A DNA stretch of 47,690 bases from Bacteroidales bacterium (GTDB lineage: Bacteria > Bacteroidota > Bacteroidia > Bacteroidales > 4484-276), in contig JAAYIU010000437.1 in assembly GCA_012523265.1 (NCBI GenBank), positions 1 to 47,690 on the forward strand, written 5' to 3'. The position numbers and the translations under genes are program-made. Of this stretch, positions 363 to 36,906 are shown one piece after another (the stretch's first letter is position 1; each line of letters begins with the position of its first letter). Under the pieces are notes generated by a model. The model did no database searches, had not been told where the DNA came from, and saw only the letters and a list, made by a program, of their open reading frames with translations.

Positions 363-404
363 TTCTCACCTCTCACTTCTCACCTCTCACTTCTCACCTC
401 TCAC
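363..404. repeat. perfect 14-nt tandem repeat ttctcacctctcac x3
   Basis: The copies lie at 363-376, 377-390 and 391-404. The third copy contains the cyclase stop codon (394-396) and its last 3 codons. Confidence 0.95.
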
Positions 405-2376
405 TTTCAACCTCTTCCTCCACAAAATACATCTCAAAGGAAAGTCCGTTTTTTACTTCCACCTGTCCGCGGGGCGTACATTGGAAATGATCCTTCACCA
501 GGAGCCAGGTGGCGCGCGAAATATTTATCTTGCCTACTTCGCCGCCCGATTCCATGCGTGAGGCAATGTTGACGGTGTCGCCCCAGATGTCGTAGGCGAA
601 TTTACGGTTGCCCACGATACCGGCTACTACCGGGCCGGTGTGCAGGCCAATTCGCGCTTCAAACCACTGCATTCCGGCTGCCTGCCGTTGTTGTTTATAT
701 TCCTCCATAAACCGACGGATGGCGCAGGCGGCGCGCACGGCATCCACAGGATTGGTAGTATTGGCCAGAGGTAGCCCGGCAGCACACATGTATGAGTCGC
801 CGATGGTCTTGATTTTTTCGACGTGGTGCTGCGTGATGATGTCGTCGAAATGTTTGTAGCAATAGTCGATTTCGGCTACCAGCGCTTCGGGTTCCATTTC
901 TCCGGCCATTTGCACAAATCCTTTGAAGTCGGTGAAAAGAACTGTCACCTGATCGTATTTGCGAGCTTTGGATGTGCCGCTGTTTTTGAGTTCTTCGGCA
1001 GTTTCGGAAGGCAGGATATTTAGCAGCAGGTCGTCGGAGCGTTGGCGTTCGTGGGTGATCACCCGGTTTTTGTCCTCCAGCTCGCGACGGGTGCGCTGCA
1101 CGTAGCGGTAGCGGTGCAGCAGCAGCAGGGCGACAGCCAAAAATAATGCTCCGATAACGATGATTAGGTTGCGCAACTGCTTTTGGCGTTGGAGCTGGAG
1201 CTTTTGTATTTCGATATTTTTGGCAAACAGCTCTATTTCTTTATCAGATTTCTCTTTTACATAAGCATTCACGCTCATCTGCGACTTGCTTTTTTCGATG
1301 TTTTGCAGCGAGTCGCGCAGAGAGATGTATTTTTCGTTGTATTCAAAAGCGTGTTTATAATCATCGATACCCTGATAGGCTTTGCTCAGCTCCTTATAAA
1401 CATCTACCAGGATGCTGCGATAGTTCATTTCAAGCGCAAGCTGTTGTGTTTCGTTAAGCACCTGAAGCGCCGCGGTATGTTTCTTCTTTCGGTTCAAAAG
1501 ATCGCCTTGTGCAACCATTAAATTTAAAATCCCATATTGATCGTTTACCTGGTGCGCCAGGTCAAGCGCTGTATCCAGGTTAGCGGCGGCAAGTCCGATT
1601 TCATTTTTGTCGAGATAGAGATACACGAGCGCCTGATAAGCATATTCGAGCTTGTACAAGTCGTGGCTTTGTCGGTGCAGGCTAATGGCTTTTTGATGAT
1701 AATAAAAGGCCGAATCATATTGTTCGAGCGCCTGAAATGCAACGCCGATATTCGAGAGGTTGGTAGCGTATTTGGCGGTGTCGTGGCTTTTCAAATTGTA
1801 GCGCATCGCATTGCGAAAGTAATCGAGCGCAATGCCGGGGCTTTTCATCTCGTGGTAGCGCAGCCCAATGTTGTTGAGTGCCACGGCCATGCGCATGGTG
1901 TCGTGTTGGCTTTCGGCCAGCGAGAGCAACTCCAGCAGATAGTCGATCGAGGTAGAATATTCGCCCATGAGCGAATAAACGATGCTCAGGTTGTTGTAAA
2001 CCGAAGCGGCAAGATTCCAAAGATTATTTTCTTTCGCAATTTCCAGACATTGCTCGTATTTTGCTATCGCAGCCGGATAGTTACTTTGCTCGAGCATCAT
2101 GCCCTGAAGGTTGAGTGCGGTGGCAATTCCGGGATAAAAACCTTCGCGCTTCGACAAGTTATAGAGCTGTTCGGCATAATAGGAAACCGTGTCAGGATGG
2201 CTACTGCTCAGGTCGTACATTGCTGCAGTCAGATCCATGAGCAGCAGGCTGTCGGCGGGTTGCTTCAATATTTCTAAAAACAAGCTGTCGCATAATGCAA
2301 TTTTCTTTTCGGCCTGTGAATATGAGAACAGAGCTATCAAAAGCAAAAGCAACAGAAGCAGTTTTTTAGCGTGCAT
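394..2376 (-). CDS. membrane-anchored TPR-repeat class III adenylate cyclase
   Basis: 660-aa ORF. It has an N-terminal signal/anchor (KKLLLLLLLLIALFSYSQA), about 330 aa of TPR-like repeats, a coiled coil and a TM helix (LIIVIGALFLAVALLLL). The C-terminal cyclase core has FTDFKGF (metal Asp), KTIGDSYM and AYDIWGDTVNIASRME (the Lys/Asp adenine-specifying pair). Its start overlaps the cheB stop by 11 nt. Confidence 0.9.
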   Translation of the reverse strand: MHAKKLLLLLLLLIALFSYSQAEKKIALCDSLFLEILKQPADSLLLMDLTAAMYDLSSSHPDTVSYYAEQLYNLSKREGFYPGIATALNLQGMMLEQSNYPAAIAKYEQCLEIAKENNLWNLAASVYNNLSIVYSLMGEYSTSIDYLLELLSLAESQHDTMRMAVALNNIGLRYHEMKSPGIALDYFRNAMRYNLKSHDTAKYATNLSNIGVAFQALEQYDSAFYYHQKAISLHRQSHDLYKLEYAYQALVYLYLDKNEIGLAAANLDTALDLAHQVNDQYGILNLMVAQGDLLNRKKKHTAALQVLNETQQLALEMNYRSILVDVYKELSKAYQGIDDYKHAFEYNEKYISLRDSLQNIEKSKSQMSVNAYVKEKSDKEIELFAKNIEIQKLQLQRQKQLRNLIIVIGALFLAVALLLLHRYRYVQRTRRELEDKNRVITHERQRSDDLLLNILPSETAEELKNSGTSKARKYDQVTVLFTDFKGFVQMAGEMEPEALVAEIDYCYKHFDDIITQHHVEKIKTIGDSYMCAAGLPLANTTNPVDAVRAACAIRRFMEEYKQQRQAAGMQWFEARIGLHTGPVVAGIVGNRKFAYDIWGDTVNIASRMESGGEVGKINISRATWLLVKDHFQCTPRGQVEVKNGLSFEMYFVEEEVESER

Positions 2377-3421
2377 TTTTCACTTTATTAATTACAAATT
2401 CAGCGATATGGTTTATGGGCAGCACGTATTGCGCAGCGCCAATTTTTTCGGCTTCTTTGGGCATTCCGTATACTACGCTTGTGGCTTGATCTTGAGCGAT
2501 AGTCAGTGCTCCCGCCTGTTTCATTAAGAGCATGCCGGCGGCACCGTCAGCGCCCATTCCTGTAAGTAGAATGCCTGAAGCGTTGCTTCCGGCCACACGC
2601 GCTGCCGAATTAAAAAGTACATCCACGGCAGGGCGGTGCCGGTTGACCAGCGCGCCGCTATAAACGTCAGCGCAAAAGCCGTCAGCGCAGCGTTTGATAG
2701 CCGTATGAAAACCACCGGGCGCTATCAGCACTTTGCCGGCGGTGAGTTTTTCTCCATTTTCAGCTTCCTTCACCCGAAATGGAAATAAGCTGTTGAGCCT
2801 TTCGGCAAATGTTCGTGTAAAGCCCGCCGGCATATGCTGCACAACGATTACCGGCGGCGTGTTGGCAGGAAGCCCGGCCAGGAGTGTCTGGATGGCTTCC
2901 GTGCCACCGGTGGAGGCGCCAATAGCAATGATTGTTTTGTTATTAAAACCAAAAGCCGACACTGCATTAGCGGATTGCGCGGAGGCTTTCGGCAGTCGGG
3001 TCATATTGCGGCGAAGTGGCCGCGACATGCTGGCGGCTATCACGGCATCGACAATCTGAATACAGCTTTCGCTGATGTTTTCCTGATTGATAAGATTGGG
3101 TTTATGGATGACCTCCACAGCGCCATATTCCAATGCCCTGATCACTTCGGGGGAGCCTTTGCGCGTAAGGCTCGAAATCACCACTACCGGCACAGGGTGC
3201 TGTGTCATAATGCGATGAAGAAACGTAAGCCCGTCCATGCGAGGCATGTCCAGGTCGAGGGTGATCACGTCAGGAATTTCTTTTTTCATACAGGCTGCCG
3301 CCACATAAGGGTTGGGGGCTGTGGCAATAATTTCGATCAGCCCCGAGCGCTCAAGTATCCCGGTCAGCGAATGTCGGATTACAGCGGAATCATCGACAAT
3401 TAATACACGAATTTTTTTCAT
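2366..3421 (-). CDS. cheB: chemotaxis response regulator protein-glutamate methylesterase CheB
   Basis: REC domain (MKKIRVLIVDDS, LDLDMPRMDG) plus a methylesterase domain with GASTGG (Ser), VVQHMP (His) and GMGADG (Asp). The ORF extends to 3448, but the ATG at 3421 gives the canonical REC N-terminus. Confidence 0.93.
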   Translation of the reverse strand: MKKIRVLIVDDSAVIRHSLTGILERSGLIEIIATAPNPYVAAACMKKEIPDVITLDLDMPRMDGLTFLHRIMTQHPVPVVVISSLTRKGSPEVIRALEYGAVEVIHKPNLINQENISESCIQIVDAVIAASMSRPLRRNMTRLPKASAQSANAVSAFGFNNKTIIAIGASTGGTEAIQTLLAGLPANTPPVIVVQHMPAGFTRTFAERLNSLFPFRVKEAENGEKLTAGKVLIAPGGFHTAIKRCADGFCADVYSGALVNRHRPAVDVLFNSAARVAGSNASGILLTGMGADGAAGMLLMKQAGALTIAQDQATSVVYGMPKEAEKIGAAQYVLPINHIAEFVINKVKNAR

Positions 3422-3464
3422 AATAAAACTGGCTGTTGACGCATTCATCTCTTTTGTCCACCAT

Positions 3465-3926
3465 TCAAAGATATTTCTGCATCACCTCGCCGGTTTGTGT
3501 GTTAAAGAATATTTTACGTCCGCGGGTGCCGCCGGTGCTGCCTTTGGCTATTTGGATGCCATAGTCTGCATAAATATCAAAAGCCAACTCAACATTGTGC
3601 TGACCAATATCAAAAACCCTTGCGGTATCGTCGAGTATTCTGGCGCCGCCAAAAAATTTGGCAATAAGGTTTTCTGTTTTGCTGCCGTTGTTTAGCATTT
3701 TCTTTACCAGCAGATCGTTGGCAATATTTCCATATTTTGGTGAAGCCAATCCTACACCATTCCACAGCGGCAGCATGTAATGGTTCATCCCGCCGGTGTT
3801 TTTCGCTCTGTCCCACAGGCACACAGCCACACACGATCCCAAAATAGTATTGAGGATGATGGGCTGCTGTGCCACAAAAAGGGCTGATGAGTAAATGTAT
3901 TTCGCCTGCAGGTTGTTCATTATCAC
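3465..3926 (-). CDS. cheD: chemoreceptor glutamine deamidase CheD
   Basis: 153 aa with the CheD signature ILGSCVAVCLWD and NHYMLP. It starts 2 nt after the stop of the upstream kinase-like gene. Confidence 0.9.
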   Translation of the reverse strand: MIMNNLQAKYIYSSALFVAQQPIILNTILGSCVAVCLWDRAKNTGGMNHYMLPLWNGVGLASPKYGNIANDLLVKKMLNNGSKTENLIAKFFGGARILDDTARVFDIGQHNVELAFDIYADYGIQIAKGSTGGTRGRKIFFNTQTGEVMQKYL

Positions 3927-3928
3927 AC

Positions 3929-4819
3929 CTAAAACAATTCACTTTGGTCGAAGAGAAAATCCTCTCCATGGGTGGCTGAGCCGCTGCTGTCGGTGGTATG
4001 TGTACGATCCGGAATTCGGATGATAAAGGTGCTGCCATGATCGCGCTGGCTATGCAATTTTATTTCGCCGCCAAGAAGCTCAAGGTAATATTTTGTCAGT
4101 GGAAGCCCCAGGCCATGTCCTTGGCCGGGTGTAGCCACGGCAGGGTTTATTCTGCTGAACCGGTCGAAGATGCGCTCATGGTCAGCACTGTCGATACCGG
4201 AGCCATGGTCGGTTACGGCAATGGACACCATTTCTTCTTTGTGCGTTAGCGCAATATTCACCTCGGTACCGTGATAGGTGTATTGCACAGCATTCATAAT
4301 CAGATTTTCGAGGATGAGTTGCAGCTTTTGCGGATCGCTGCGAATAATGAGTTTGTCAGGCGAAAACCCGTCATAAACAAAGCGTACATTTCTGTCGGCA
4401 GCAATTTTTTTAAACTTTGCAGTAATGTCTTTGACCGCCTGCATAATGTCAAAATCATAAAATTCTATCGCCACATCACCGGCTTCTATCTCGGCAGAGG
4501 CAAAGATGTTGTGCCATTGGAAATCGAGATGTACCGCTTCCTGATAGATCAGTGCTGCCCGGCGACGAATCTCTTCTGCTGGCAGGTTTTCATTCGCGCT
4601 AAGCGATTCCGATAAACTGAGTATCGCCGTGAGCGGGTTGATGATCTCGTTGCGTGCATTCGACAGAAAGTTCGTTTTCAGCCGCTCTGCCTCAATGAGT
4701 TTGCGATTCACCTGCCGGAGCGTACGGTTGAGCTGTTCCAGTTCTTCGTAAGCCTGGCTGCGCTGGTCGATGCGCCGCTGCAGTTCGTCGATAAGTTGCC
4801 GGTCGGTAAGTGATGTCAT
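3929..4819 (-). CDS. HisKA/HATPase_c histidine-kinase-like protein lacking the phospho-acceptor His
   Basis: 296 aa with an N-terminal coiled coil. The H-box reads FLSNARNEIINPL where FLxNxSHExRxPL is expected, so His is replaced by Asn while ExxN is kept. The N box (LENLIMNAVQYT), G1 (DHGSGID), F (IFDRFSR) and G2 (GHGLGL) are intact. There is no sensor, TM or REC domain. Confidence 0.85.
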   Translation of the reverse strand: MTSLTDRQLIDELQRRIDQRSQAYEELEQLNRTLRQVNRKLIEAERLKTNFLSNARNEIINPLTAILSLSESLSANENLPAEEIRRRAALIYQEAVHLDFQWHNIFASAEIEAGDVAIEFYDFDIMQAVKDITAKFKKIAADRNVRFVYDGFSPDKLIIRSDPQKLQLILENLIMNAVQYTYHGTEVNIALTHKEEMVSIAVTDHGSGIDSADHERIFDRFSRINPAVATPGQGHGLGLPLTKYYLELLGGEIKLHSQRDHGSTFIIRIPDRTHTTDSSGSATHGEDFLFDQSELF

Positions 4820-4859
4820 AGTTTATGGTGTAATGTCAGTTCTGGTAATGATGGTAAAA

Positions 4860-4906
4860 ATTCCAAATTCCAAATCTCAAATAAATTCCAAAAAGCAAAT
4901 TCCAAA
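4860..4906. repeat. ATTCCAAA (sense strand TTTGGAAT) iterated 4 times plus one degenerate copy
   Basis: Perfect copies lie at 4860, 4867, 4885 and 4899, and a degenerate copy atctcaaa at 4874. They sit in the 177-bp spacer between cheR and the kinase-like gene. Confidence 0.9.
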
Positions 4907-4996: not shown

Positions 4997-5854
4997 TTAA
5001 ATCTTTTGATACACAGCGGGTGCTACCCTTTTCAGTGGGCGCCACAAGTCGTTTGATAAGGATTCGGAGTGACCAATAAAAAAATACCCGCCCGGACGCA
5101 GTTTTTTAAGCAGCGCCCGCACTACGCGCAACTGCACCGCACGATCGAAATAAATCAACGTGTTGCGGCAAAAGATGGCATCAAAGTCTTTCTGCTGAAA
5201 GCGCTCTGTTTGCATTAGATTTTGCCTTTCAAACTGCACCTTCTGTCGCAGTGCCGAAACGATACGCACCCTCTTGGCTGTCCGGTCGCGGCTGCGCAAG
5301 AGGTAGTTCTGGCGCAGACTCAGCGGTATCACCTGGGTTTTGCTTTCGGGATAGATGGCCAGGGTAGCTTGTCGCAATGCTGTTGCCGAGATGTCGGTAG
5401 CCACAATTTTAAAATTGAAACGAGGATGCAATGATTTGAACTCACTCATGATAATGGCCATCGTGTAAGCCTCTTCGCCTGTGGAGCATCCGGCACTCCA
5501 TATTTTAAAGGATGGATCTTCGGAATGCTGGTAATGATCGATAAAGACATTTTTGTATAAAAAATCAAAATGATCGGGTTCGCGGAAGAAATCGGTTTTG
5601 TTGGTAGTCACCGCGTCGATCATGTGGACAAGCTCAATCTGCCGGCCACGGCTGCTGAACAAAAAAGTGATATAGGTGGCGAAGTCGCTGCACGCGTTTA
5701 TCTTCAGGCGCGAGCGCAGGCTGCTTTGGAGCATCAGCTTCTTATGCGGCGGCAGGTGGATGCCGTACTCGCGGAAGATAAATTCGCTGAGCCGCCCAAA
5801 GTCGGCCTGGCTCATCTCTGTCTTATAAAGCCTATGTAGTTCGTTGGTCTGCAC
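4997..5854 (-). CDS. cheR: chemotaxis protein methyltransferase CheR
   Basis: 285 aa with the CheR N-terminal helical domain and a SAM-binding fold (IWSAGCSTGEEAYTMA, IFCRNTLIYF). Confidence 0.93.
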   Translation of the reverse strand: MQTNELHRLYKTEMSQADFGRLSEFIFREYGIHLPPHKKLMLQSSLRSRLKINACSDFATYITFLFSSRGRQIELVHMIDAVTTNKTDFFREPDHFDFLYKNVFIDHYQHSEDPSFKIWSAGCSTGEEAYTMAIIMSEFKSLHPRFNFKIVATDISATALRQATLAIYPESKTQVIPLSLRQNYLLRSRDRTAKRVRIVSALRQKVQFERQNLMQTERFQQKDFDAIFCRNTLIYFDRAVQLRVVRALLKKLRPGGYFFIGHSESLSNDLWRPLKRVAPAVYQKI

Positions 5855-8563: not shown

Positions 8564-10111
8564 CTATCGAGCGTAGTTGATGGCGCGTGTTTCGCGGATC
8601 ACCGTAATTTTGATTTGCCCGGGATAGGTCATCTCGTCTTGGATTTTCTTCGACAAATCGTATGACAGCAACCTTGCCTCTTCGTCAGAAACGGCTTCAG
8701 CGCCCACAATTACGCGTAGCTCCCGACCGGCTTGTATAGCATAGGTTTTTACTACGCCGGGATAGGCGAGTGCCAGGGCTTCGAGGTTTTTGAGCCGCTG
8801 GATGTAGGCCTCTACCACTTCGCGTCGCGCTCCCGGACGTGCGCCCGAGATAGCATCGCACACCTGAACGATGGGTGCCAGCAGCGTGGTCATCTCCACC
8901 TCTTCGTGGTGCGAGCCGATGGCGTTGCACACCTCTTCGTTTTCTTTGTATTTCTCGGCCAGCTTCATGCCCAGCAGTGCGTGTGGGAGTTCCGATTCGT
9001 TGTCGGGCACCTTGCCAATGTCGTGCAGCAGCCCGGCGCGTTTGGCTTTTTTGGGATTCAAGCCCAGCTCGGCGGCCATGGTGGCGCACAGGTTGGCCAC
9101 TTCGCGTGAATGCTGCAAAAGGTTTTGGCCGTAGGAGGAGCGGTATTTCATCTTTCCTACCAGCCGCACCAGCTCGGGGTTCATGTTGTGGATGCCCAGG
9201 TCGATACAGGTTCGTTTCCCGGTTTCGATGATCTCCTGTTCGATTTGTTTTTTGGTTTTTCCCACTACCTCTTCGATGCGTGCCGGGTGTATGCGTCCGT
9301 CGGTGACGAGCTTGTGCAGGGAGAGACGGGCTATTTCGCGGCGTACCGGGTCGAAGCCCGAAAGGATGATGGCGTCGGGGCTGTCGTCGATGATGATCTC
9401 GATGCCGGTGAGCGCCTCGAGGGTGCGGATGTTGCGCCCTTCGCGACCGATGATGCGGCCTTTGATTTCGTCGTTATCAATATTAAAAACCGAAACAGAG
9501 TTTTCTACAGCATTCTCGGTGGCTGTACGCTGAATGGTTTCTACGATAATTTCGCGGGCTTTCTGGTTGGCGGTGAGTTTGGCTTCGTCGAGGATGTCCT
9601 GAATAAACACCATAGCTTCGCTTTTGGCTTCGTCTTTTAGCGTTTCGATGATCTGCGCTTTGGCCTCTTCGGCGGTAAGCCCCGAAATGGCTTCGAGCTG
9701 CGCCACTTGTTTGTTTACAAACTTGTCGAGTTCTTCCTGCTTTGCGTTGATCACTTCGAGCTGCGAGGTGAGATTTTTGCGCAGGTTGGCGAGTTCTTTC
9801 TCTTTTTTGTTTAGCTCTTCAAGTTTCTGTGAGGCTGTGGTTTCCTTTTGTTTAAGTCTGTTTTCGTTTTTTAATAAGATGTTGTTGCGTTCGTTTACAA
9901 CTTGTTCGTGCTCTGTTTTGAGCTGCAAAAATTTCTCTTTGGCCTGAAGGATTTTCTCCTTCTTAATCATTTCAGCTTTTTCCTGTGCGTCGAGCAGCAG
10001 CATCTGGCTTTTTTTTGTCACCCTCTTCCGCAGTATTGTGGAAGAAAGCAACACTCCGAGGGCTATTCCTACAACCCCCACGAAAATCGCAATCAATAAA
10101 GTATCCATCAT
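8564..10111 (-). CDS. rny: ribonuclease Y
   Basis: N-terminal TM helix ([22 protein letters not shown]), a long coiled coil, a KH domain ([12 protein letters not shown]) and an HD domain (LLHDIGK). The track ORF extends to 10324, but that extension has no homology and overlaps a structured RNA. The ATG at 10111 gives the canonical N-terminus. Confidence 0.93.
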
Positions 10112-10140
10112 TTTTCGTGTTTTAGGTGAGGGCATCAGAA

Positions 10141-10370
10141 AAAGAAAAAAACCCGCAAGTATTCCAGTGGAGTTTAGTAAACCCCGTTCTTCAAGATTAG
10201 GGTTACCGGCAGCATCAAACGTCCACTGACCCGCCGGATGGCGGATTTCCGCCGAAGCGGAATGAGGCCTGCTTTTAACTGCCTGCGCTTTCCCTTGAGT
10301 GTAAAATGTTGAGTTTACAAACAAATATGGAATAAATGCGGGTATATTATTCCACCGCTGTGCGGGTTTT
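10141..10370 (-). ncRNA. structured RNA candidate between zapA and rny (6S-like RNA or rny leader)
   Basis: The ends pair (ACCCGCA 10367-10361 with UGCGGGU 10157-10151) and are followed by a U7 run. Interior complementary segments are GGUGG/CCACU, GUAAACUC/GGGUUUAC, UCAAG/CUUGA and GGCAG/CUGCC. The apical region has a UUCCGC-UUCG-GCGGAA tetraloop hairpin and a CCGCC-AUCC-GGCGG hairpin. No covariance-model search was possible. Confidence 0.45.
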
Positions 10371-10381
10371 CCTGCCCTGCT

Positions 10382-10708
10382 TTAGCGGCGTTTTTCAAAG
10401 AACGTCGGTTGAACTTCGTCGGTCAAATGTTCGGTTAATACTCTGTCGATCTCTTCTAATTTCTCGCTCAGCTTATCCTGTTGAAAGTTCAACTGGATAT
10501 CCATGTGCTTGTTGCCGATGGCATTTTGCAGTACCACCATGGCAAGCAAATCCTGTGTGTCTTTAAACTCGTAGCTCTCTGCATATTTTCTGAGGTCATC
10601 GTTGATTTTTTTTACTACTTCCCGCACCAGCGCCTCATGCTTTCGTTCGATGTGCAACCGGTATTCTCTTTCGGCTACCCGTACGGTTATAAAAAATTTA
10701 TCCATCAC
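10382..10708 (-). CDS. zapA: cell division protein ZapA
   Basis: 108 aa with a ZapA-like N-terminus (ITVRVAEREYRLHIERKHEALVREVVKKINDDLRKY). It sits upstream of rny, which is typical synteny in Bacteroidota. Confidence 0.8.
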   Translation of the reverse strand: MMDKFFITVRVAEREYRLHIERKHEALVREVVKKINDDLRKYAESYEFKDTQDLLAMVVLQNAIGNKHMDIQLNFQQDKLSEKLEEIDRVLTEHLTDEVQPTFFEKRR

Positions 10709-10729
10709 AGCGTATTATAAAAATGCATG

Positions 10730-11017
10730 TCAATCATTCATCAGGCCGATACATCTGTCAACTTCCCGCAACAGCCCGCTGACGAGCTGCTTTGCTTCTT
10801 TCGATCCTTTTTTCCCTTCTAATGCCTTTGCAATTTTAATTATCTGGTTAGTGTATTCTAATTGTTTAACTTTTAATTTTAGTTCGTTTGTCTCTTCTGT
10901 TAGTTTATTATTGTGTGTCTGTAATTTATCAATTTGCTTCTTGCAACTGTGCAACTGGCTTGTTAACTGTCGGGTCTTGTATTCGATGCCACTTACCAAC
11001 GCAATCAAATCCTTCAT
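10730..11017 (-). CDS. small coiled-coil protein (possible ZapB-like partner of ZapA)
   Basis: 95 aa from the ATG at 11017, heptad-rich (KKQIDKLQTHNNKLTEETNELKLKVKQLEY). It lies 21 nt upstream of zapA. The track start at 11056 falls inside the predicted -7 box. Confidence 0.55.
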   Translation of the reverse strand: MKDLIALVSGIEYKTRQLTSQLHSCKKQIDKLQTHNNKLTEETNELKLKVKQLEYTNQIIKIAKALEGKKGSKEAKQLVSGLLREVDRCIGLMND

Positions 11018-11053
11018 AAATCTTCTCTGTAATTGATCAAAATCACAACCTGA

Positions 11054-11061
11054 CAAAATTA
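11054..11061 (-). promoter_or_regulatory. -7 promoter box (TAatTTTG) for the coiled-coil/zapA/rny unit
   Basis: The plus strand reads caaaatta, which is TAATTTTG on the minus strand. It lies 37 nt upstream of the ATG at 11017. Confidence 0.45.
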
Positions 11062-11115
11062 GACTTTTTTATTAATCAAAAAATATTTTAATCTGCTTTT
11101 TATAAAAATGTTTTT

Positions 11116-11123
11116 TAGTTTTG
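11116..11123 (+). promoter_or_regulatory. -7 promoter box (TAgtTTTG) for the DUF2851 gene
   Basis: tagttttg lies 19 nt upstream of the ATG at 11142. Confidence 0.4.
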
Positions 11124-11141
11124 TCAGCAAAGCTAAAGCAG

Positions 11142-23708: not shown

Positions 23709-24029
23709 ATGACTGATACAAAACAAGTCCACGTCCGGATAGAAAGAGAGAGAGATCAGCAGCAGTATCTTTCGGTCGCGCTCAGCGGCGCTCTTACCAT
23801 CGATCACGTAGCTGATGTGCAGCAGCAGTTGTTGCAACATCTCGATGCCGTTCAGGGGGTTCGGTTGTCGATAGATGAAGCCGACGAGATGGATCTGCCA
23901 TTTTATCAATTGTTGATTTCTTTGCAACAGACATTGATAAAGCAAAACAAAGAATTTAGTGCGACGATATTGTTGGATGAAGAAAAGGAAGAGCTTTTCA
24001 GGAGGGCTGGTTTTGAATTTAATTTTTAA
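23709..24029 (+). CDS. STAS domain protein
   Basis: 106 aa with STAS-like alternation (LSVALSGALTIDHVADVQQQLLQHL...RLSIDEADEMDLPFYQLLISL). There is no phosphorylatable Ser at the SpoIIAA-equivalent position (DLPF instead of DSSG). It lies 11 nt upstream of cheY. Confidence 0.65.
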   Translation: MTDTKQVHVRIERERDQQQYLSVALSGALTIDHVADVQQQLLQHLDAVQGVRLSIDEADEMDLPFYQLLISLQQTLIKQNKEFSATILLDEEKEELFRRAGFEFNF

Positions 24030-24040
24030 ATAAAAAAAAC

Positions 24041-24415
24041 ATGAACCAGGAAAAACGGACGGTAGTTTTTGTTGACGATTCGGCGAGCATGCGCGAAGCC
24101 GTGGGATGCATCCTGCAGCAAAACGGATATACTGTGCTCAAAGCCGGCGACGGGCAGGATTCATTGAAATATTTTGAAGGCACCCCCGTGGATTTGCTTA
24201 TCACCGATCTGCACATGCCGCGCATGAATGGTATCGAATTGATACAAACCCTGCGCAATAGTTCCCGCTACAGGTATTTGCCTATTTTGGTGCTAACCAC
24301 CGAAGCGCAGGTTGCCCAAAAAATGGAAGCCAAACGCGCCGGAGCTACCGGCTGGCAGGTGAAACCTTTTACACCCGAAAACCTCATGGCCGTTATCCGC
24401 CGCGTTATTCATTAA
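24041..24415 (+). CDS. cheY: chemotaxis response regulator CheY
   Basis: 124 aa single REC domain (VFVDDS, LLITDLHMPRMNG, VLTT, VKPF). Confidence 0.92.
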   Translation: MNQEKRTVVFVDDSASMREAVGCILQQNGYTVLKAGDGQDSLKYFEGTPVDLLITDLHMPRMNGIELIQTLRNSSRYRYLPILVLTTEAQVAQKMEAKRAGATGWQVKPFTPENLMAVIRRVIH

Positions 24416-24434
24416 TAAATTTCTTCAAGATTGT

Positions 24435-26573
24435 ATGAACCAGGCTGTAGAATCACCGAACGACCAATTTGCCATCGACATGGTGATGTTGAAGCAAAAA
24501 TTTACCGAGGAAGCGCATGAGCTGATCAATGACCTGGAAAATGCCATTTTGCTTCTCGAAAAAAATGCCGGCGACACACAGCAGATTGAAGCGGTGTTCA
24601 GAGCTATGCACACCCTCAAAGGCAGTGGCGGCATGTTTGGTTACCACAAGATCAGCGAGTTTACGCACGACCTGGAAACCATCTACGATTTTGTTCGCAA
24701 TGGCGATATCACCGTTACCAAGCCATTGCTCGACATCACCCTGCAGGCTGTCGATCATCTTAAAATATTGATAAAATATGGCGATGATATCGACGAACAA
24801 AACACCAAAAATCATCACCAGTTTACCGAAAGCATCCGGGTTTTTGTGCAGAAACAATTAGCGCCTTTCGATTCGCAGAGTGACGCCGGGACAGACAGAG
24901 CAGCGCTAAATGACTCTAATCCCATCATCACCTGGCGCATTCTTTTCAAGCCGCAGATAGATTTGTTTCGTAATGGCAGCAACCCGCTCTATCTCATCGA
25001 CGAGCTGCATACCTATGGCAACGCCGTATCCATTCCTCACACAAGGGCGGTGCCTGACTTGTCAGAAATCGACACCGAAAAATGCTACCTCTGGTGGGAA
25101 ATATTTATTGCCACCCGGCAATCCAAAGAAGCGCTGAATGACGTTTTTATTTTTGTTGAAGATGATTCGTACATCGAAGTGACCAAGATCGGCGATGGTG
25201 ATCTTTTTGATGAGAGCCGCTTTCGCGAATATCTCGATAAACTCTGGAATGAACAGTTGCAGGTTGATATTAACGAGCTGGAAAAAATTGTGCAAAGCCG
25301 CAATGCTTTGCATCAGCCGGCGCCGGCGGTAAGCCATTCAGTAGCAGAAGGGGATGAGGAAACCAAACCGTCGGCCGACAACAATTCTGCTGTCACCACC
25401 GATGAAAAGCTTTCGAGTATTCGTGTTGCCACGCCAAAGATCGACTCGCTGATGAATTTGGTGAGCGAGCTGGTAACGTTGCAGGCGCGGCTGAGTGGCT
25501 ACGCCGGGCAACACGACGACGACGGTTTGACAGCGCTAACCGAAAATCTTTCTACACTATCCAAACAGCTTCGCGAGGCTGCCTTTAGCATCTCATTGGT
25601 TCCTTTTGGCAGCATTACTACCCGTTTTCAGCGGCTTGTGCGCGACCTTTCCGACAATCTTAATAAAAAAACAAACCTGGTGGTGGAAGGGCAAAATACC
25701 GAACTTGACAAAACGATAGTGGAGCGCATCGCCGATCCGTTGATGCACATCATCCGCAACTGTATCGACCATGGCATCGAAAGCCCGGAAGAGCGTGTGC
25801 GCAATGGGAAATCCGAAACCGGCACTATTCATCTGCGGGCACTTCATGTGGGCAACACCATTCATATCGAAGTAAACGACGATGGCGCCGGCATAGATGC
25901 GGATGCGTTGATGCGCAAAGCCATCGAGCGAAAAGTGATCCTGGCCAATGTTGCCTTGACACACGAGCAGAAAATTCAGCTCATCTTTTCTCCGGGTCTT
26001 ACCACAGCCCGCTCTGTGACTGATGTATCTGGCCGTGGAGTGGGCATGGACGTGGTGCAACAACGCGTTGCAGGGCTGCGCGGCGAAATTCGGATAAAAT
26101 CACAACCTGGCGCCGGAACCCGCATCACGCTGGTGGTGCCGCTTACTCTAAGCATCATCGACGGGATGCACGTGCGAATAGGCGAGGTGAGTTACATTAT
26201 TCCTATCAATGCTGTGCAACAGATACATTCGGTGCAAATGCAAAACCTGCGCAATGCTTTCGACAACGTGTTGGCGATTGAGGGCGAGCAAGTGCCTTTT
26301 TTCTGGCTACGCAAACATTTCGGCCTGGATTCGACAACTCCCGAGCGTTGTGAAATGGTAACCGTTCGTTATGGCCGGCAGCAGGCCGGGTTGGTTGTTG
26401 ATAAGGTGATGGGAGAGGTGCAAGTCGTTCTGAAACCGCTGGGGCGCGCTTACCGGCAGCAGAAGTTTATATCGGGAGCTACTGTGATGGGCGACGGGAC
26501 AGTAGCGCTGGTGTTGGATACAAATGAAATAATTTCGCGATTTTTGCCCCAAAAATTAGCAACTGATAAATGA
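24435..26573 (+). CDS. cheA: chemotaxis histidine kinase CheA
   Basis: 712 aa with Hpt (FRAMHTLKGSGGMFG), a dimerisation domain, HATPase (IRNCIDHGIE, DDGAGID, GRGVGMD) and a C-terminal CheW-like domain. Confidence 0.95.
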   Translation: MNQAVESPNDQFAIDMVMLKQKFTEEAHELINDLENAILLLEKNAGDTQQIEAVFRAMHTLKGSGGMFGYHKISEFTHDLETIYDFVRNGDITVTKPLLDITLQAVDHLKILIKYGDDIDEQNTKNHHQFTESIRVFVQKQLAPFDSQSDAGTDRAALNDSNPIITWRILFKPQIDLFRNGSNPLYLIDELHTYGNAVSIPHTRAVPDLSEIDTEKCYLWWEIFIATRQSKEALNDVFIFVEDDSYIEVTKIGDGDLFDESRFREYLDKLWNEQLQVDINELEKIVQSRNALHQPAPAVSHSVAEGDEETKPSADNNSAVTTDEKLSSIRVATPKIDSLMNLVSELVTLQARLSGYAGQHDDDGLTALTENLSTLSKQLREAAFSISLVPFGSITTRFQRLVRDLSDNLNKKTNLVVEGQNTELDKTIVERIADPLMHIIRNCIDHGIESPEERVRNGKSETGTIHLRALHVGNTIHIEVNDDGAGIDADALMRKAIERKVILANVALTHEQKIQLIFSPGLTTARSVTDVSGRGVGMDVVQQRVAGLRGEIRIKSQPGAGTRITLVVPLTLSIIDGMHVRIGEVSYIIPINAVQQIHSVQMQNLRNAFDNVLAIEGEQVPFFWLRKHFGLDSTTPERCEMVTVRYGRQQAGLVVDKVMGEVQVVLKPLGRAYRQQKFISGATVMGDGTVALVLDTNEIISRFLPQKLATDK

Positions 26574-27103
26574 ACATGAATTACAACAGCAGCAATCAAT
26601 CTTATTTAACCTTTCAGTTGGCAAACGAAATCTTTGCTATCCACGCAGGTCGTGTCATCAAAATACTGGAGATGCAAAAAATTACGGAAGTCCCACGGGC
26701 ACCTTCTTTTATGAAGGGTGTAATTAATCTGCGTGGCGATGTGTTGCCGGTAATCGATGCGCGCGAGAAGTTTGGGATGATGGCCACTGCTTATGGGCAG
26801 CGTACCTGCATACTCGTGCTCACGGTTACTTCCGAAAATGAAACACTGCAGGTTGGCGCCATTGTAGATGCCGTACTGGATGTGGTAAAATATCCTGATG
26901 ATCAGATCAAAAAAGCTCCCGCACTCGGCAGCCGCTATTCTTCGGAGGTGGTGGCCGGAGTGATGAAGACAGAAGACGATTTCATTATAATATTAAATGT
27001 CGACCATGTTTTTTCGACTGACGAAATTATCAGCCTGAACGAAAACATGCAGTCACAAACCGAAAATTTATCCGCATCAAGTCAAACAAAATCAAAACAA
27101 TAA
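26570..27103 (+). CDS. cheW: chemotaxis coupling protein CheW
   Basis: 177 aa CheW fold (YLTFQLANEIFAI..., INLRGDVLPVID). Its start overlaps the cheA stop (ATGA). Confidence 0.92.
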   Translation: MNMNYNSSNQSYLTFQLANEIFAIHAGRVIKILEMQKITEVPRAPSFMKGVINLRGDVLPVIDAREKFGMMATAYGQRTCILVLTVTSENETLQVGAIVDAVLDVVKYPDDQIKKAPALGSRYSSEVVAGVMKTEDDFIIILNVDHVFSTDEIISLNENMQSQTENLSASSQTKSKQ

Positions 27104-27115
27104 CAGGAGGCAACT

Positions 27116-29143
27116 ATGGCATGGAAAGATCTTAAACTGGCTGCAAAACTGGGCGTAGGCTTTGGCATCATCATCCTGATATTAATAACAGTAGGAACCA
27201 TTTCGCTGCTCGAATTTCGTAAGATAGAAAAAGATTCGGCGCGTATTGCCGAGTGCAGCCTTCCGCAGGTAATCATCGCCAACAGCCTGGAGCGGCAGGC
27301 TATGAAGATCACCAAAAACCTCAACACCTTTGCCCTGACCAACGAGCCGCAACTGCTCGAAAAAACGGCTGCCATCATCAGGCAGGTGGAAGATGTGGTT
27401 CACAATGCCGACAGGCAATACAGCGGGTTGGGCTTGTCGTCGCGGTTTGTTGAGCAACTTAATAACGTAAGAAATTCTTTACCCGAATTTGAGGTGCTGA
27501 TGCAGAATATGAAGCTGCAAAGCGAAAAGCTGCTCGTCGACCGGAGTCTGATGGATGAGGCATCAGCCATTTTTCTCGACAACTGTTACAGCTATGCCGG
27601 AAATCAACAGGCAATTATGGCCCGACAAATCGACAATCGCAATGCACAGCAACGCCAGCTCGACAACATTGTCCTTATCAACAACCTGATCGACCGCGGC
27701 AACCAGATGCGCATCGAAAACTTTAAAGCACAGGCAAAGCTTACGCTTTCGCAGATGTCAGGTTTCAACACGTATTTCGATGAAATCGACCACTTGATCA
27801 CCAGCCTCGAATCACGCACCACCGATAACCAAAGTGTGCTGCTGCTCGGAAATATCCGCAACTCGGCACAAAGCTACCACGATGTTACCAACGATTTTGT
27901 TAACACCTACAACCTGCTGCAGCAGTACAATGAGCAGGTAACAACTATGGGCACCGGATTGGAAACAGTTTTTAGCGATCTGGCCGCAGGCAGCCTCCGC
28001 GAGTCGCTCGACTTTACCAGCAGCACCACCGTCAAATCGCAGTCGTCGCTGCGCATACTTTTTATCGGACTACTCATCGCCATAATTATCAGCATATTGC
28101 TTGGATGGCAGATTTCGCGCAGCATCACCCGCTCGCTAAAAAAAGGTGTAGCCTTTGCCCGCGAAATAGCTGACGGAAATCTACAGGCCAACATCGACAT
28201 CGACCAGAAAGATGAGTTTGGCGAGCTGGCCGAAACCCTGCGGCAGATGAAAGATAAACTCAGCGAGGTGATCGTCTCGGTGCAGGCTGCCGCCGGATAT
28301 ATTGCCGAAGCCAGCAACCAGATGAGCCTCACTTCGCAGGATGTATCGCACGGCAGCACACGCCAGGCTTCGTCGGCAGAAGAGATTTCGGCATCGATGC
28401 AACAGATGTCGGCCAGCATCTCCCACAACACCTCCAATGCCCAGCGTACCGAGCAAATTGCTGATGTGGCGACCGGAAAAATGAAACAAGGCTCGGAGAC
28501 CGTGCAGCAATTGGCCCAGGCGATTCGCGAAATTGCCGAACGCATCACCATCATTGGCGATATTGCTTATCAAACCAACATCCTCTCGCTCAACGCAGCT
28601 GTAGAAGCGGCCCGTGCCGGAGAGCAGGGACGTGGCTTTGCAGTGGTGGCCGATGAGGTGAAAAAACTTGCCGAGCGCAGTCAAAAAGCAGCTACGGAGA
28701 TCAACCGTGTGTCGGGAGCCGGCGTAAAACTTGCCGAACATTCGCAGCAGCTCTTTGGCGAGATTATGCCCAAGATCGACGAAACCCTGCGCCTGGTGCA
28801 GCAGATCACCGCCCAGAGCCTGGAACAGGATTCGGGGGCCTCATTGGTGAATGATTCTATTCAGCAGCTCAATCAGGTGATACAGCAAAATGCCGCCGCC
28901 GCCGAAGAGATGGCCACCAACAGCGAAGAACTCGCCAGCCAGGCACAGCAGATGAAAGACATCATGAGCTTTTTCAAAACCGGAAAAGAATACCGCCAAC
29001 AATTGCACAACCAGCATTATCAGCGATACAACAGCCATTATCCACAGCAAAACCACCCGCTCACCATCGAGAGTAGCCAAAAAAAGGGCGTCAACCTTCG
29101 CCTGGATGATGACGATATTGATAAGGATTTCGAACGCTATTAG
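27116..29143 (+). CDS. methyl-accepting chemotaxis protein
   Basis: 675 aa with TM1, a roughly 280-aa helical periplasmic domain, TM2, HAMP and the MCP signalling domain ([40 protein letters not shown]). It has an acidic/aromatic tail ...[12 protein letters not shown]. Confidence 0.95.
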
Positions 29144-34510: not shown

Positions 34511-34552
34511 GTAGCCCAGCCATTCATGGTTCGGTAGCCCAGCCATTCATGG
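34511..34552. repeat. 19-nt perfect tandem direct repeat gtagcccagccattcatgg x2
   Basis: The copies lie at 34511-34529 and 34534-34552, a period of 23. The second copy is part of the palindrome ccagccat-tc-atggctgg and contains the hypD stop codon. Confidence 0.9.
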
Positions 34553-35626: not shown

Positions 35627-35784
35627 AAGGTCATAATTTTTACAACAGTATCATTCCACGAACTATTCATAACATTTTATTTATTTTGGGCTAAAGCCCA
35701 CTATAATTTTTCTTTAGCTTTTATCCCCGGTCTAAAGGGCAGGGTTAGTGATCAGTCGCCTACAAAAAACATCTATTTTAAAAC

Positions 35785-36861: not shown

Positions 36862-36906
36862 GGGTTTTTTAATAAAATCCTTTCTGCTGGTGGTCTGCAG
36901 AGACGA

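What the first reader, a model, noticed from the sequence alone, without database searches (positions are those of the whole stretch)
3929..4819. Kinase-like protein without the phospho-acceptor His sits in the cheC position upstream of cheD
The H-box reads F-L-S-N-A-R-N-E-I-I-N-P-L. Aligned to the HisKA consensus F-L-x-N-x-S-H-E-x-R-x-P-L, the phosphorylatable His is Asn. The adjacent E-x-x-N is retained, and that is the HisKA motif known to be required for phosphatase activity. The ATP-lid boxes N, G1, F and G2 all look intact. The protein has no sensor, TM or REC domain.

Its stop lies 2 nt before cheD, which is the slot occupied by the CheY-P phosphatase gene cheC in the Bacillus cheC-cheD pair. 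I infer it could be a dedicated phosphatase or scaffold for CheY-P or CheB-P, a CheC/CheZ/CheX substitute, rather than a kinase.
Basis: partly seen in the sequence, partly recalled or inferred. Interest (0 to 1): 0.65.

Follow-up and report, generated by a model that had tools for sequence, protein, structure and literature searches.

The report
Kinase-dead histidine kinase paired with CheD
A small histidine-kinase-like protein that has lost its phosphorylatable histidine in almost every one of about 200 relatives is always encoded directly in front of the chemoreceptor deamidase gene cheD, so it is probably an uncharacterised accessory protein of bacterial chemosensory systems that switches off a phosphorylated signal protein rather than acting as a kinase.

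Summary
The ORF at 3929-4819 (minus strand, 296 aa) has a histidine-kinase fold: a long helical hairpin (DHp), an ATP-binding domain with intact N, G1, F and G2 boxes, and a disordered tail. It has no sensor, membrane or receiver domain. Asn57 replaces the phospho-acceptor His.

This is a family trait. Of 205 distinct relatives, 203 have Asn, one has His and one has Cys. Relatives occur in Bacteroidota, Nitrospirota, Desulfuromonadales, Magnetococcales and KSB1. E58, N61, P62 and Q101 are conserved at 98% or more, and the DHp is the most conserved part of the protein.

cheD follows immediately in 82 of 82 loci that have downstream DNA. In 30 loci the pair stands alone, with no other che gene nearby. 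The window also holds STAS-cheY-cheA-cheW-mcp about 20 kb away, and no cheC, cheX or cheZ.

Published mutagenesis shows that HisKA phosphatase activity needs the Asn/Thr at His+4 and not the His. My best reading is a kinase-dead HisKA protein that binds and probably dephosphorylates CheY~P or CheB~P and works with CheD, as CheC does.

The function is inferred, not shown. The conserved ATP site and tail remain unexplained. I rate this a new variant of a known kind, with interest about 0.6.

The parts
3929..4819 (-). HK-like gene ('HKL'), 296 aa. It encodes an N-terminal helix, a DHp hairpin, a CA (HATPase_c) domain and a disordered acidic/aromatic tail. The His is replaced by Asn57.
4475..4678 (-). 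DHp region, residues 48-115. It includes the degenerate H-box F51-L63 (4631-4669) with Asn57 (4649-4651), E58, N61 and P62, and helix 2 with the invariant Q101.
   Evidence: Aligned to HK853. Conservation is N57 203/205, E58 200/205, N61 201/205, P62 205/205 and Q101 200/205. This is the most conserved part of the protein, with mean column identity of 0.82 (residues 48-66) and 0.78 (residues 91-115) against 0.52 overall.
4010..4459 (-). CA / ATP-binding domain, residues 121-270, with N, G1, F and G2 boxes.
   Evidence: HATPase_c 1.3e-25. N176, G206, G234, G236 and G238 are about 100% conserved.
3932..3970 (-). Conserved C-terminal tail, residues 284-296. The family motif is G-N-[ED]-F-[LIF]-F-[DE], then acidic residues, usually ending in Phe.
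   Evidence: 85 sequences. Disordered in the AF2 model. Mean column identity is 0.61, against 0.28 for the preceding linker. The binding partner is unknown.
3465..3926 (-). cheD, the chemoreceptor glutamine deamidase. It lies 2 nt after the HKL stop, or 8 nt if the ATG at 3920 is the start.
   Evidence: Pfam CheD 1.8e-22. Aligns to T. maritima CheD 2f9z_C. The Cys32 and His49 active-site residues are invariant in 84/84 partner CheDs.
2366..3448 (-). cheB, with a receiver domain plus a methylesterase domain.
   Evidence: (CheB_methylest 4.8e-64, Response_reg 6.4e-22).
4997..5854 (-). cheR methyltransferase, upstream of HKL and separated from it by a 177-nt spacer.
394..2376 (-). TPR plus class III adenylate/guanylate cyclase. 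It overlaps the end of cheB by 11 nt and is probably the last gene of the operon.
   Evidence: The same arrangement is found in an 87%-identical relative (L085/L086).
23709..29143 (+). Second half of the same chemosensory system: STAS (23709-24029), cheY (24041-24415), cheA (24435-26573), cheW (26570-27103) and mcp (27116-29143).
   Evidence: The MCP has EE and QQ modification sites and a C-terminal DFERY pentapeptide.

Best explanation
HKL is a kinase-dead member of the HisKA histidine-kinase lineage that has become an accessory protein of a chemosensory pathway, and it forms a functional pair with CheD.

**Shown.**
- It has the DHp + CA fold.
- It lacks the phospho-acceptor His in 99% of family members, so it cannot autophosphorylate in the canonical way.
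- The H-box face of the DHp is its most conserved surface.
- It is always encoded directly upstream of a catalytically intact cheD.

**Inferred.**
- As a dimer, it docks the receiver domain of a phosphorylated response regulator on the DHp helices, as HK853 docks RR468. The partner is most likely the pathway's CheY, possibly CheB.
- It uses the invariant Asn61 (His+4) to position the hydrolytic water and so shortens the life of the phospho-aspartate. Asn57, Glu58 and Gln101 may help.
- The retained nucleotide pocket would serve as a conformational cofactor site, as ADP/ATP does for the phosphatase state of bifunctional kinases (from my own knowledge of EnvZ and NtrB).
- By analogy with CheC-CheD, HKL and CheD would bind each other. 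The level of CheY~P would then feed back on CheD's action at the receptors, and CheD would feed back on phosphatase activity.
For: 1. His is replaced by Asn in 203/205 family sequences, with a sharp boundary to canonical SHELRTP kinases.
2. Published mutagenesis of HisKA kinases (CrdS, HK853; PMC3510030) gave these CrdA~P half-lives: 0.7 min with wild type, 2.6 min with H371A and 53.5 min with no kinase. H371A therefore keeps phosphatase activity. N375A (His+4) abolishes it, and P376A reduces it strongly. HKL keeps Asn at His+4 in 201/205 sequences and Pro at His+5 in 205/205.
3. The same paper states that CheX uses ExxN and CheZ uses DxxxQ. HKL has E58-x-x-N61.
4. The DHp is the most conserved region. 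The AF2 model resembles HK853 in its RR468-bound complexes most closely, with target-normalised TM-scores (TMt) up to 0.85.
5. cheD is the next gene in 82/82 loci across at least five phyla. In 30 loci the pair stands alone, which argues for a self-contained two-protein unit.
6. The partner CheD keeps its Cys and His. The window's MCP has a QQ site that would need deamidation, so CheD has its normal substrate.
7. No CheC, CheX or CheZ was found in the window or in the Pfam-annotated clusters of relatives.
8. CheC-CheD reciprocity is established in Bacillus (PMC3513319 abstract).
Against: - No biochemical data exist for any family member.
- The Glu at His+1 is dispensable for HisKA phosphatase activity. 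Its 98% conservation is therefore not explained by a pure HisKA-type phosphatase.
- The strict conservation of every ATP-binding box is more than a scaffold or cofactor role obviously requires. Scaffolding pseudokinases often let the ATP site decay (from my own knowledge of RetS).
- The conserved tail and N-terminal helix have no assigned partner.
- Thirty loci have no receiver-domain gene consistently nearby.
- The HKL-CheD contact rests on synteny alone. A paired-alignment complex prediction could not be run.
- Whole genomes were not searched for cheC, cheX or cheZ. Geobacter species do carry cheC and cheX elsewhere (PMC2577667).
Confidence: 0.45

Rival explanations
1. HKL is a non-catalytic pseudokinase sensor or scaffold, like DivL. 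It binds CheY~P (or CheB~P) and CheD without speeding up dephosphorylation. It only controls where CheD is or how active it is, working as a CheC-like adaptor without the phosphatase function.
For: DivL is a histidine kinase whose His is replaced. Its kinase core is reused to sense DivK~P (PMC4211667), and DivL is among the best structural matches (4q20). In Bacillus the CheC-CheD interaction matters more than the enzymatic activity (title and abstract of PMC3513319). The HKL-cheD synteny is strict.
Against: The residue that is specifically catalytic for phosphatase activity (Asn at His+4) is kept in 98% of sequences as Asn rather than the T/N mix seen in ordinary kinases. The ATP site is also kept. 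A pure binding role predicts looser constraints on both.
Confidence: 0.22
2. HKL is an active ATP-dependent protein kinase with a non-His acceptor. The target could be Ser, Thr or Tyr of CheD, the STAS protein, the receptor or HKL itself. This would resemble SpoIIAB/RsbW or the mitochondrial PDK/BCK kinases, which share the fold.
For: Every nucleotide-binding box is close to 100% conserved. PDK isozymes and the HATPase_c_2 family give weak hits. A STAS gene lies in the che cluster of the window and of some relatives.
Against: The HATPase_c_2 hit (29 bits) lies under the much stronger HATPase_c hit (90 bits) and adds nothing. The window's STAS protein has Leu where SpoIIAA-type proteins have the phosphorylatable Ser; this is my reading of the sequence against the DSSG motif from memory. 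STAS was detected in only a few loci. The H-box face, not the CA domain, is the most constrained region.
Confidence: 0.12
3. HKL is a substrate or pseudo-substrate of the modification enzymes. CheD would deamidate an invariant amide such as Asn57 or Gln101, or CheR/CheB would methylate the DHp bundle. HKL would then be a soluble methyl- or deamidation-accepting signal protein.
For: The DHp dimer is an antiparallel four-helix bundle like a receptor's. The invariant amides N57, N61 and Q101 are family-specific. The acidic/aromatic C-terminal tail is reminiscent of the receptor pentapeptide tether, and the cluster's own MCPs end in [DE][FY][EQ][KR][FY].
Against: HKL has no match to the receptor modification consensus [ASTG][ASTG]xx[EQ][EQ]xx[ASTG][ASTG], whereas the window's MCP has two strict and four loose matches. 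The tail lacks the aromatic residue at pentapeptide position 2, which is required for CheR binding (PMC7390727). Lone HKL-cheD pairs lack cheR and cheB nearby.
Confidence: 0.06
4. HKL is an ordinary sensor kinase, and the Asn is a sequencing or assembly error or a recent pseudogenising mutation.
For: One family member on a single 2.1-kb metagenome contig has His (CAT codon) at this position.
Against: 203 of 205 distinct sequences from independent assemblies and several phyla have Asn, in full-length ORFs under evident purifying selection.
Confidence: 0.01

Closest known systems
Bifunctional HisKA histidine kinases in their phosphatase state (HK853-RR468, EnvZ, CrdS)
   Same: Same fold (DHp + CA) and homologous sequence, with E values down to 1e-27 against solved kinases. 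The closest structural match is HK853 bound to RR468. The Asn/Thr at His+4 and the Pro at His+5, which are needed for phosphatase activity, are kept.
   Different: There is no phospho-acceptor His, so no kinase half-reaction. There is no sensor or transmembrane input. It has a family-specific Arg/Lys56, Asn57 and Gln101, a conserved N-terminal helix and a C-terminal tail. It is genetically tied to cheD rather than to a response-regulator gene.
CheC / CheX / FliY CheY-P phosphatases, and the CheC-CheD pair of Bacillus and Thermotoga
   Same: The gene lies immediately upstream of cheD. An E-x-x-N motif sits on an exposed helix. There would be two active sites per functional unit, one per protomer of the HKL dimer against two per CheC monomer. 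It is the only candidate CheY~P-terminating protein in the cluster.
   Different: The fold is unrelated, and no Pfam CheC or CheX hit was obtained. HKL carries an ATP-binding domain. Neither binding to CheD nor phosphatase activity has been shown.
DivL (Caulobacter) and other histidine pseudokinases
   Same: A histidine-kinase core with the His replaced (Tyr in DivL, Asn here). DivL is a top structural match (4q20). DivL senses a phosphorylated single-domain response regulator through the DHp (PMC4211667).
   Different: DivL is a large membrane-anchored multi-PAS protein acting on CckA, whereas HKL is a bare 296-aa core. HKL keeps the His+4 Asn and all ATP boxes. Its pathway context is chemosensory with CheD, not cell-cycle control.
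CheZ
   Same: The logic is the same: a dimeric helical bundle carrying a catalytic amide, plus a flexible linker that ends in a conserved acidic/hydrophobic C-terminal peptide. In CheZ this peptide tethers CheY (from my own knowledge).
   Different: There is no sequence or fold relation. The HKL tail motif (GNEFLFD...F) does not resemble the CheZ or FliM CheY-binding peptides.
F8-type chemosensory class (CheA, CheW, CheY, CheB, CheR + CheD)
   Same: The gene content of the window's system matches. [quoted passage not shown] F8 is described as experimentally uncharacterised (bioRxiv 10.64898/2026.05.11.724241).
   Different: Class assignment by CheA phylogeny was not done here. Neither paper's text, as far as I could search it, says that the 'kinase' lacks its His or proposes a role for it.

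Membership tests
HisKA-type sensor histidine kinase | Phosphorylatable His in the H-box of the DHp helix 1 | tested here: not met
   Asn57 aligns with His260 of HK853. Asn is found in 203/205 family sequences.
HisKA-type sensor histidine kinase | DHp helical hairpin homologous to HisKA (PF00512) | tested here: inconclusive
   The Pfam HisKA score is 22.9 bits, below the 26.9 cut-off. However, full-length phmmer alignments to HisKA kinases and the AF2/Foldseek result support homology.
HisKA-type sensor histidine kinase | CA domain with N, G1, F and G2 boxes | tested here: met
   HATPase_c 1.3e-25. The boxes are about 97-100% conserved.
HisKA-type sensor histidine kinase | ATP-dependent autophosphorylation and transfer to a receiver Asp | not testable with these tools
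   Needs biochemistry. Canonical autophosphorylation is excluded by the missing His.
HisKA phosphatase-competent core | Thr/Asn at His+4 (essential for phosphatase activity) and Pro at His+5 | tested here: met
   N61 in 201/205 and P62 in 205/205 sequences. The requirement comes from PMC3510030.
CheC/CheX/FliY phosphatase family | CheC-like fold (Pfam CheC / CheX domains) | tested here: not met
   Pfam gives only HATPase_c, HATPase_c_2 and HisKA. The fold is that of a histidine kinase.
CheC/CheX/FliY phosphatase family | E-x-x-N active-site motif | tested here: met
   E58-I-I-N61 is conserved at 98%. The motif definition is from PMC3510030. A four-residue motif match alone is weak evidence.
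CheC/CheX/FliY phosphatase family | Accelerates CheY~P hydrolysis; CheC binds CheD | not testable with these tools
   Only synteny is available: cheD is the next gene in 82/82 loci.
Histidine pseudokinase (DivL-like) | Kinase core with the acceptor His replaced, conserved across orthologues | tested here: met
Histidine pseudokinase (DivL-like) | Function independent of ATP binding or hydrolysis | not testable with these tools
   Conservation of the ATP boxes hints that nucleotide binding matters here, but this was not tested.
F8 chemosensory class | [quoted passage not shown] | tested here: met
   The window holds all of these, split into two operons. Relatives have them contiguous.
F8 chemosensory class | CheA groups with F8 CheAs in a phylogeny | not tested
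   No reference set of classified CheA sequences was at hand.
CheD deamidase (partner gene) | PF03975 domain with catalytic Cys and His | tested here: met
   Pfam 1.8e-22. Aligned to 2f9z_C. Cys and His are invariant in 84/84 partners.

The most novel reading that the evidence does not exclude
The intact ATP site is catalytic. HKL would then be an ATP-consuming enzyme whose acceptor is not a His. One version is that it phosphorylates CheD or the receptor. Another is that CheD deamidates the invariant Asn57 to Asp, creating a switchable acceptor on the DHp. Either way, a deamidase and a rewired kinase core would form a new kind of energy-driven adaptation module that also works as a stand-alone pair outside che clusters.
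Probability: 0.08. Interest if true: 0.85.

Novelty: new variant of a known kind. Interest (0 to 1): 0.62.

Why it matters
Signal termination and adaptation are the least uniform parts of bacterial chemosensory pathways; CheZ, CheC, CheX, FliY, CheV and phosphate sinks all occur.

This family would add a further solution. A histidine-kinase core would be stripped to its phosphatase or receiver-binding half and coupled to CheD.

The family is widespread. It was found in 366 species-level genomes in one scan and in at least five phyla, including cultured Trichlorobacter, Rhodocytophaga and Marinoscillum.

It is currently annotated as 'HAMP domain-containing sensor histidine kinase', which is wrong on two counts: it has no HAMP domain and no acceptor His. 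The error inflates two-component-system counts.

The family also gives a concrete, testable handle on a chemosensory class (F8-like) that is described as experimentally uncharacterised. It may equally help explain why many genomes have CheD without CheC.

Tried and rejected
1. **Is HKL the methylation or deamidation substrate?** I looked for the receptor consensus in HKL and found none. The window's MCP has canonical EE and QQ sites. I kept this idea only as a low-probability rival.
2. **Is the C-terminal tail a CheR/CheB pentapeptide?** The cluster MCPs have a clear [DE][FY][EQ][KR][FY] end. The HKL tail lacks the aromatic residue at position 2, so this was not adopted.
3. **Does the tail or N-terminus resemble FliM/CheZ CheY-binding peptides?** I compared by eye and saw no convincing match.
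4. **Curated family name.** NCBIfam gives only generic kinase models far below their cut-offs. Source names are generic.
5. **Complex prediction.** An HKL-CheD or HKL-CheY prediction with a paired alignment was prepared but not submitted.
6. **Wider taxonomy from a divergent marine member.** A single-protein scan with P0060 returned only itself and unrelated kinases.
7. **Literature.** Eight searches found no description of this family. The Caulobacter Hmr paper that matched 'lacks the conserved histidine' concerns an unrelated hybrid kinase. Wuichet & Zhulin 2010 is not held.
8. **Long proteins among the top profile hits.** These are tandem canonical kinases that rank high by summed score. 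They are not family members.
Full report
**1. What is at the coordinates**

The ORF at 3929..4819 on the minus strand encodes 296 aa.

- Pfam finds a strong HATPase_c domain (1.3e-25). The HisKA match is 22.9 bits, below the 26.9 cut-off.
- phmmer against PDB chains aligns nearly the whole protein to HisKA kinases, with 7z8n at 1.6e-27 and HK853 at 1.1e-25. FLSNARNEIINPL lies on FIANISHELRTPL, so the phospho-acceptor His260 of HK853 corresponds to Asn57. The codon is AAC at 4649-4651.
- An AlphaFold2 model built on 60 family sequences has mean pLDDT 79.6 and pTM 0.70. It shows a long helix (6-75), a second helix (81-113), an alpha/beta domain (121-270), a disordered ATP lid (222-235) and a disordered tail (276-296).
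- The best Foldseek matches are HK853 in its complexes with RR468 (TMt up to 0.85) and the pseudokinase DivL.
- No sensor, membrane or receiver domain is present.
- The stop codon lies 2 nt before a GTG that opens cheD. An ATG two codons further on fits the orthologue N-termini better.

**2. The Asn is a family character**

A word-indexed search found about 60 proteins of 290-300 aa with E values of 1e-36 or better. After these there is a sharp drop to ordinary kinases.

- In the alignment of 60 members, R56, N57, E58, N61, P62 and Q101 are invariant. The next-best hits outside the family read SHELRTP.
- A scan of one genome per GTDB species found 366 loci encoding a relative. The best 80 come from Bacteroidota (Lentimicrobiaceae, other Bacteroidales, Flavobacteriia, Cytophagales), Nitrospirota (Ca. 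Magnetominusculus, Thermodesulfovibrio), Desulfuromonadales (Geobacter, Trichlorobacter), Magnetococcales and KSB1. They include the cultured Trichlorobacter thiogenes, Rhodocytophaga aerolata and Marinoscillum pacificum.
- A profile search of 1.84 billion cluster representatives returned 126 single-domain members among the top 150, each scoring at least 294 bits. The 21 long proteins in that list are tandem canonical kinases whose individual domains score at most 184 bits and carry His.

Pooling the loci and the representatives gives 205 distinct sequences:

| Position | Count |
|---|---|
| Acceptor position | Asn 203, His 1, Cys 1 |
| E58 | 200 |
| N61 | 201 |
| P62 | 205 |
| Q101 | 200 |

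- Mean column identity is 0.82 for the H-box region (48-66), 0.78 for helix 2 (91-115), 0.49 for the ATP-binding domain and 0.52 overall.
- The glycines and Asn of the N, G1 and G2 boxes are nevertheless close to 100% conserved.
- The single His-bearing member sits on one 2.1-kb metagenome contig, has codon CAT and is also followed by cheD.

**3. Gene context**

I labelled ORFs in all loci by phmmer against reference Che proteins taken from Pfam-annotated relatives. The counts below are for 83 non-duplicate loci:

| Feature | Loci |
|---|---|
| cheD is the next gene (of 82 loci with downstream DNA) | 82 |
| cheR upstream | 43 |
| cheB after cheD | 41 |
| cheA within 10 kb | 32 |
| HKL-cheD alone, no other che gene detected | 30 |
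| ...of these, with at least 5 kb on both sides | 16 |

- The usual order in Bacteroidota is (STAS)-cheY-cheA-cheW-mcp-cheR-HKL-cheD-cheB(-cheY).
- One example of a lone pair is Geobacter, with EamA-HKL-cheD-HDOD-REC/GGDEF. Another is Ca. Magnetominusculus, with dnaA-dnaN-HKL-cheD-gyrB-gyrA.
- The partner CheD keeps its catalytic Cys and His in 84/84 cases.
- In the window the system is split. cheR-HKL-cheD-cheB-(TPR-cyclase) lies at 0.4-5.9 kb on the minus strand. STAS-cheY-cheA-cheW-mcp lies at 23.7-29.1 kb on the plus strand.
- The MCP has two strict and four loose matches to the methylation/deamidation consensus, including a QQ site, and ends in DFERY. CheD, CheR and CheB therefore have their ordinary substrate.
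- No CheC, CheX or CheZ domain was found among the window's ORFs of 150 aa or more, or in the annotated clusters of relatives.

**4. Mechanism**

*Shown.* The protein cannot use the canonical His. Its most constrained surface is the H-box face of the DHp. It is genetically locked to an intact cheD.

*From the literature* (Willett & Kirby 2012, PMC3510030):
- In the HisKA kinase CrdS, with tests extended to its homologues HK1190 and HK4262 and to HK853, the His is not needed for phosphatase activity. The CrdA~P half-life was 0.7 min with wild type, 2.6 min with H371A and 53.5 min alone.
- The Asn/Thr at His+4 is essential for phosphatase activity and only for it.
- Pro at His+5 contributes strongly.
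- The same paper recalls that CheX uses ExxN and CheZ uses DxxxQ.

HKL keeps exactly the phosphatase-relevant residues and has lost the kinase-essential one.

*Inferred.* The HKL dimer docks a phosphorylated receiver domain on the DHp and Asn61 positions the attacking water. CheY is the likelier partner, because clusters such as L002 and L047 have cheY but no cheB. CheB is possible, because it follows cheD in half of the loci. Asn57, Glu58 and Gln101, all family-specific or unusually fixed, may complete the site. In CheC-CheD of Bacillus, CheY~P strengthens CheC-CheD binding and so controls CheD at the receptors (PMC3513319). The strict HKL-cheD pairing makes an analogous reciprocal regulation the most economical reading. 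I put this composite explanation at about 0.45.

**5. What does not fit, and the rivals**

- The Glu at His+1 and all ATP-binding boxes are conserved more strictly than a HisKA-type phosphatase needs.
- A cofactor role for nucleotide is possible but untested. An active kinase with a non-His acceptor cannot be excluded (0.12).
- A purely binding, DivL-like role (PMC4211667) is the main rival (0.22).
- The idea that HKL is itself modified by CheD, CheR or CheB has no motif support (0.06).
- A sequencing error is excluded.
- The conserved C-terminal motif GN[ED]F[LIF]F[DE]...F and the conserved N-terminal helix (L9, E12, L13, R16) have no assigned partner. The tail differs from the MCP pentapeptide of the same clusters ([DE][FY][EQ][KR][FY]) at the aromatic position 2, which CheR binding requires (PMC7390727).

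**6. Comparison with what is known, and novelty**

- By descent HKL is a HisKA/HATPase_c protein, but it fails the defining feature of a histidine kinase.
- By position and motif it behaves like CheC/CheX, but it has an unrelated fold.
- By logic it resembles DivL-type pseudokinases, but it keeps the catalytic Asn and the ATP site.
- Databases call it a 'HAMP domain-containing sensor histidine kinase', and no NCBIfam model is specific for it.
- A 2026 preprint describes the CheD-containing F8 class as experimentally uncharacterised.
- I found no text that notes the missing His or proposes a function. My searches cover only open-access papers, and Wuichet & Zhulin 2010 could not be read.

I rate this a new variant of a known kind. 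It is a widespread, mis-annotated, kinase-dead HisKA protein recruited as a chemosensory accessory partner of CheD. The function remains to be demonstrated.

Noticed in passing
window 23709-29143 (+): This is the second operon of the same chemosensory system: STAS_2 protein, cheY, cheA, cheW and a 4HB_MCP-HAMP-MCPsignal receptor.
   Followed up: yes
window 27116-29143 (MCP C-terminus); MCPs in L001-L083: The receptor ends in ...DKDFERY after a long Q/N/H/Y-rich linker. MCPs of nearly all related clusters end in [DE][FY][EQ][KR][FY]. This is a pentapeptide-type CheR/CheB tether with Phe/Tyr instead of Trp at position 2.
   Followed up: partly
window 394-2376 (-): A 660-aa protein has an N-terminal hydrophobic stretch, TPR repeats, a second hydrophobic segment and a class III adenylate/guanylate cyclase domain. 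It overlaps the end of cheB by 11 nt, and the arrangement is conserved in an 87%-identical relative (L085/L086). This suggests a cyclic-nucleotide output or input linked to this chemosensory operon.
   Followed up: partly
window 4858-4906 (spacer between cheR and HKL): There are three exact copies, plus degenerate copies, of AAATTCCAAA (TTTGGAATTT on the coding strand). Relatives have similar T-rich TTTGAAT/TTTGGAT repeat arrays in the same spacer (L006, L085). This may be an internal promoter or a regulator-binding array in front of HKL.
   Followed up: partly
L018, L019, L020 (Ca. Magnetominusculus and related Nitrospirota), about 10001-11367: The HKL-cheD pair sits between dnaN and gyrB, in the order dnaA-dnaN-HKL-cheD-gyrB-gyrA. 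This is the replication-origin gene block, far from any che gene.
   Followed up: partly
L007-L012, L017, L026, L054 (Lentimicrobiaceae and other Bacteroidales), e.g. L008:8438-9994: A REC-HisKA-HATPase_c-REC hybrid kinase of about 519 aa, with a canonical HisKA, is inserted between cheR and HKL. This places a true kinase next to the kinase-dead one.
   Followed up: partly
L093:858-1787 (P0246); P0208: Two exceptions occur at the acceptor position among 205 family sequences. One has His (codon CAT, one nucleotide from AAT) and one has Cys. Each is known from a single short metagenome contig. The His-bearing gene is still followed by cheD and preceded by a PilZ-like ORF.
   Followed up: partly
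L001:12555-15542 (Paludibacteraceae MAG): Downstream of HKL-cheD-cheB lie DUF6272, a SiaC-like protein and a REC-PAS-PP2C (SpoIIE) phosphatase. This partner-switching module may be the output of that cluster.
   Followed up: no
window 34547-38121 (-) and 38292-41948 (+): HypD, a radical-SAM protein and a HydF GTPase (hydrogenase maturation genes) lie here, next to a 1218-aa subtilase with MAM and Por_Secre_tail (type IX secretion) domains. This is consistent with an anaerobic Bacteroidales-type host.
   Followed up: no
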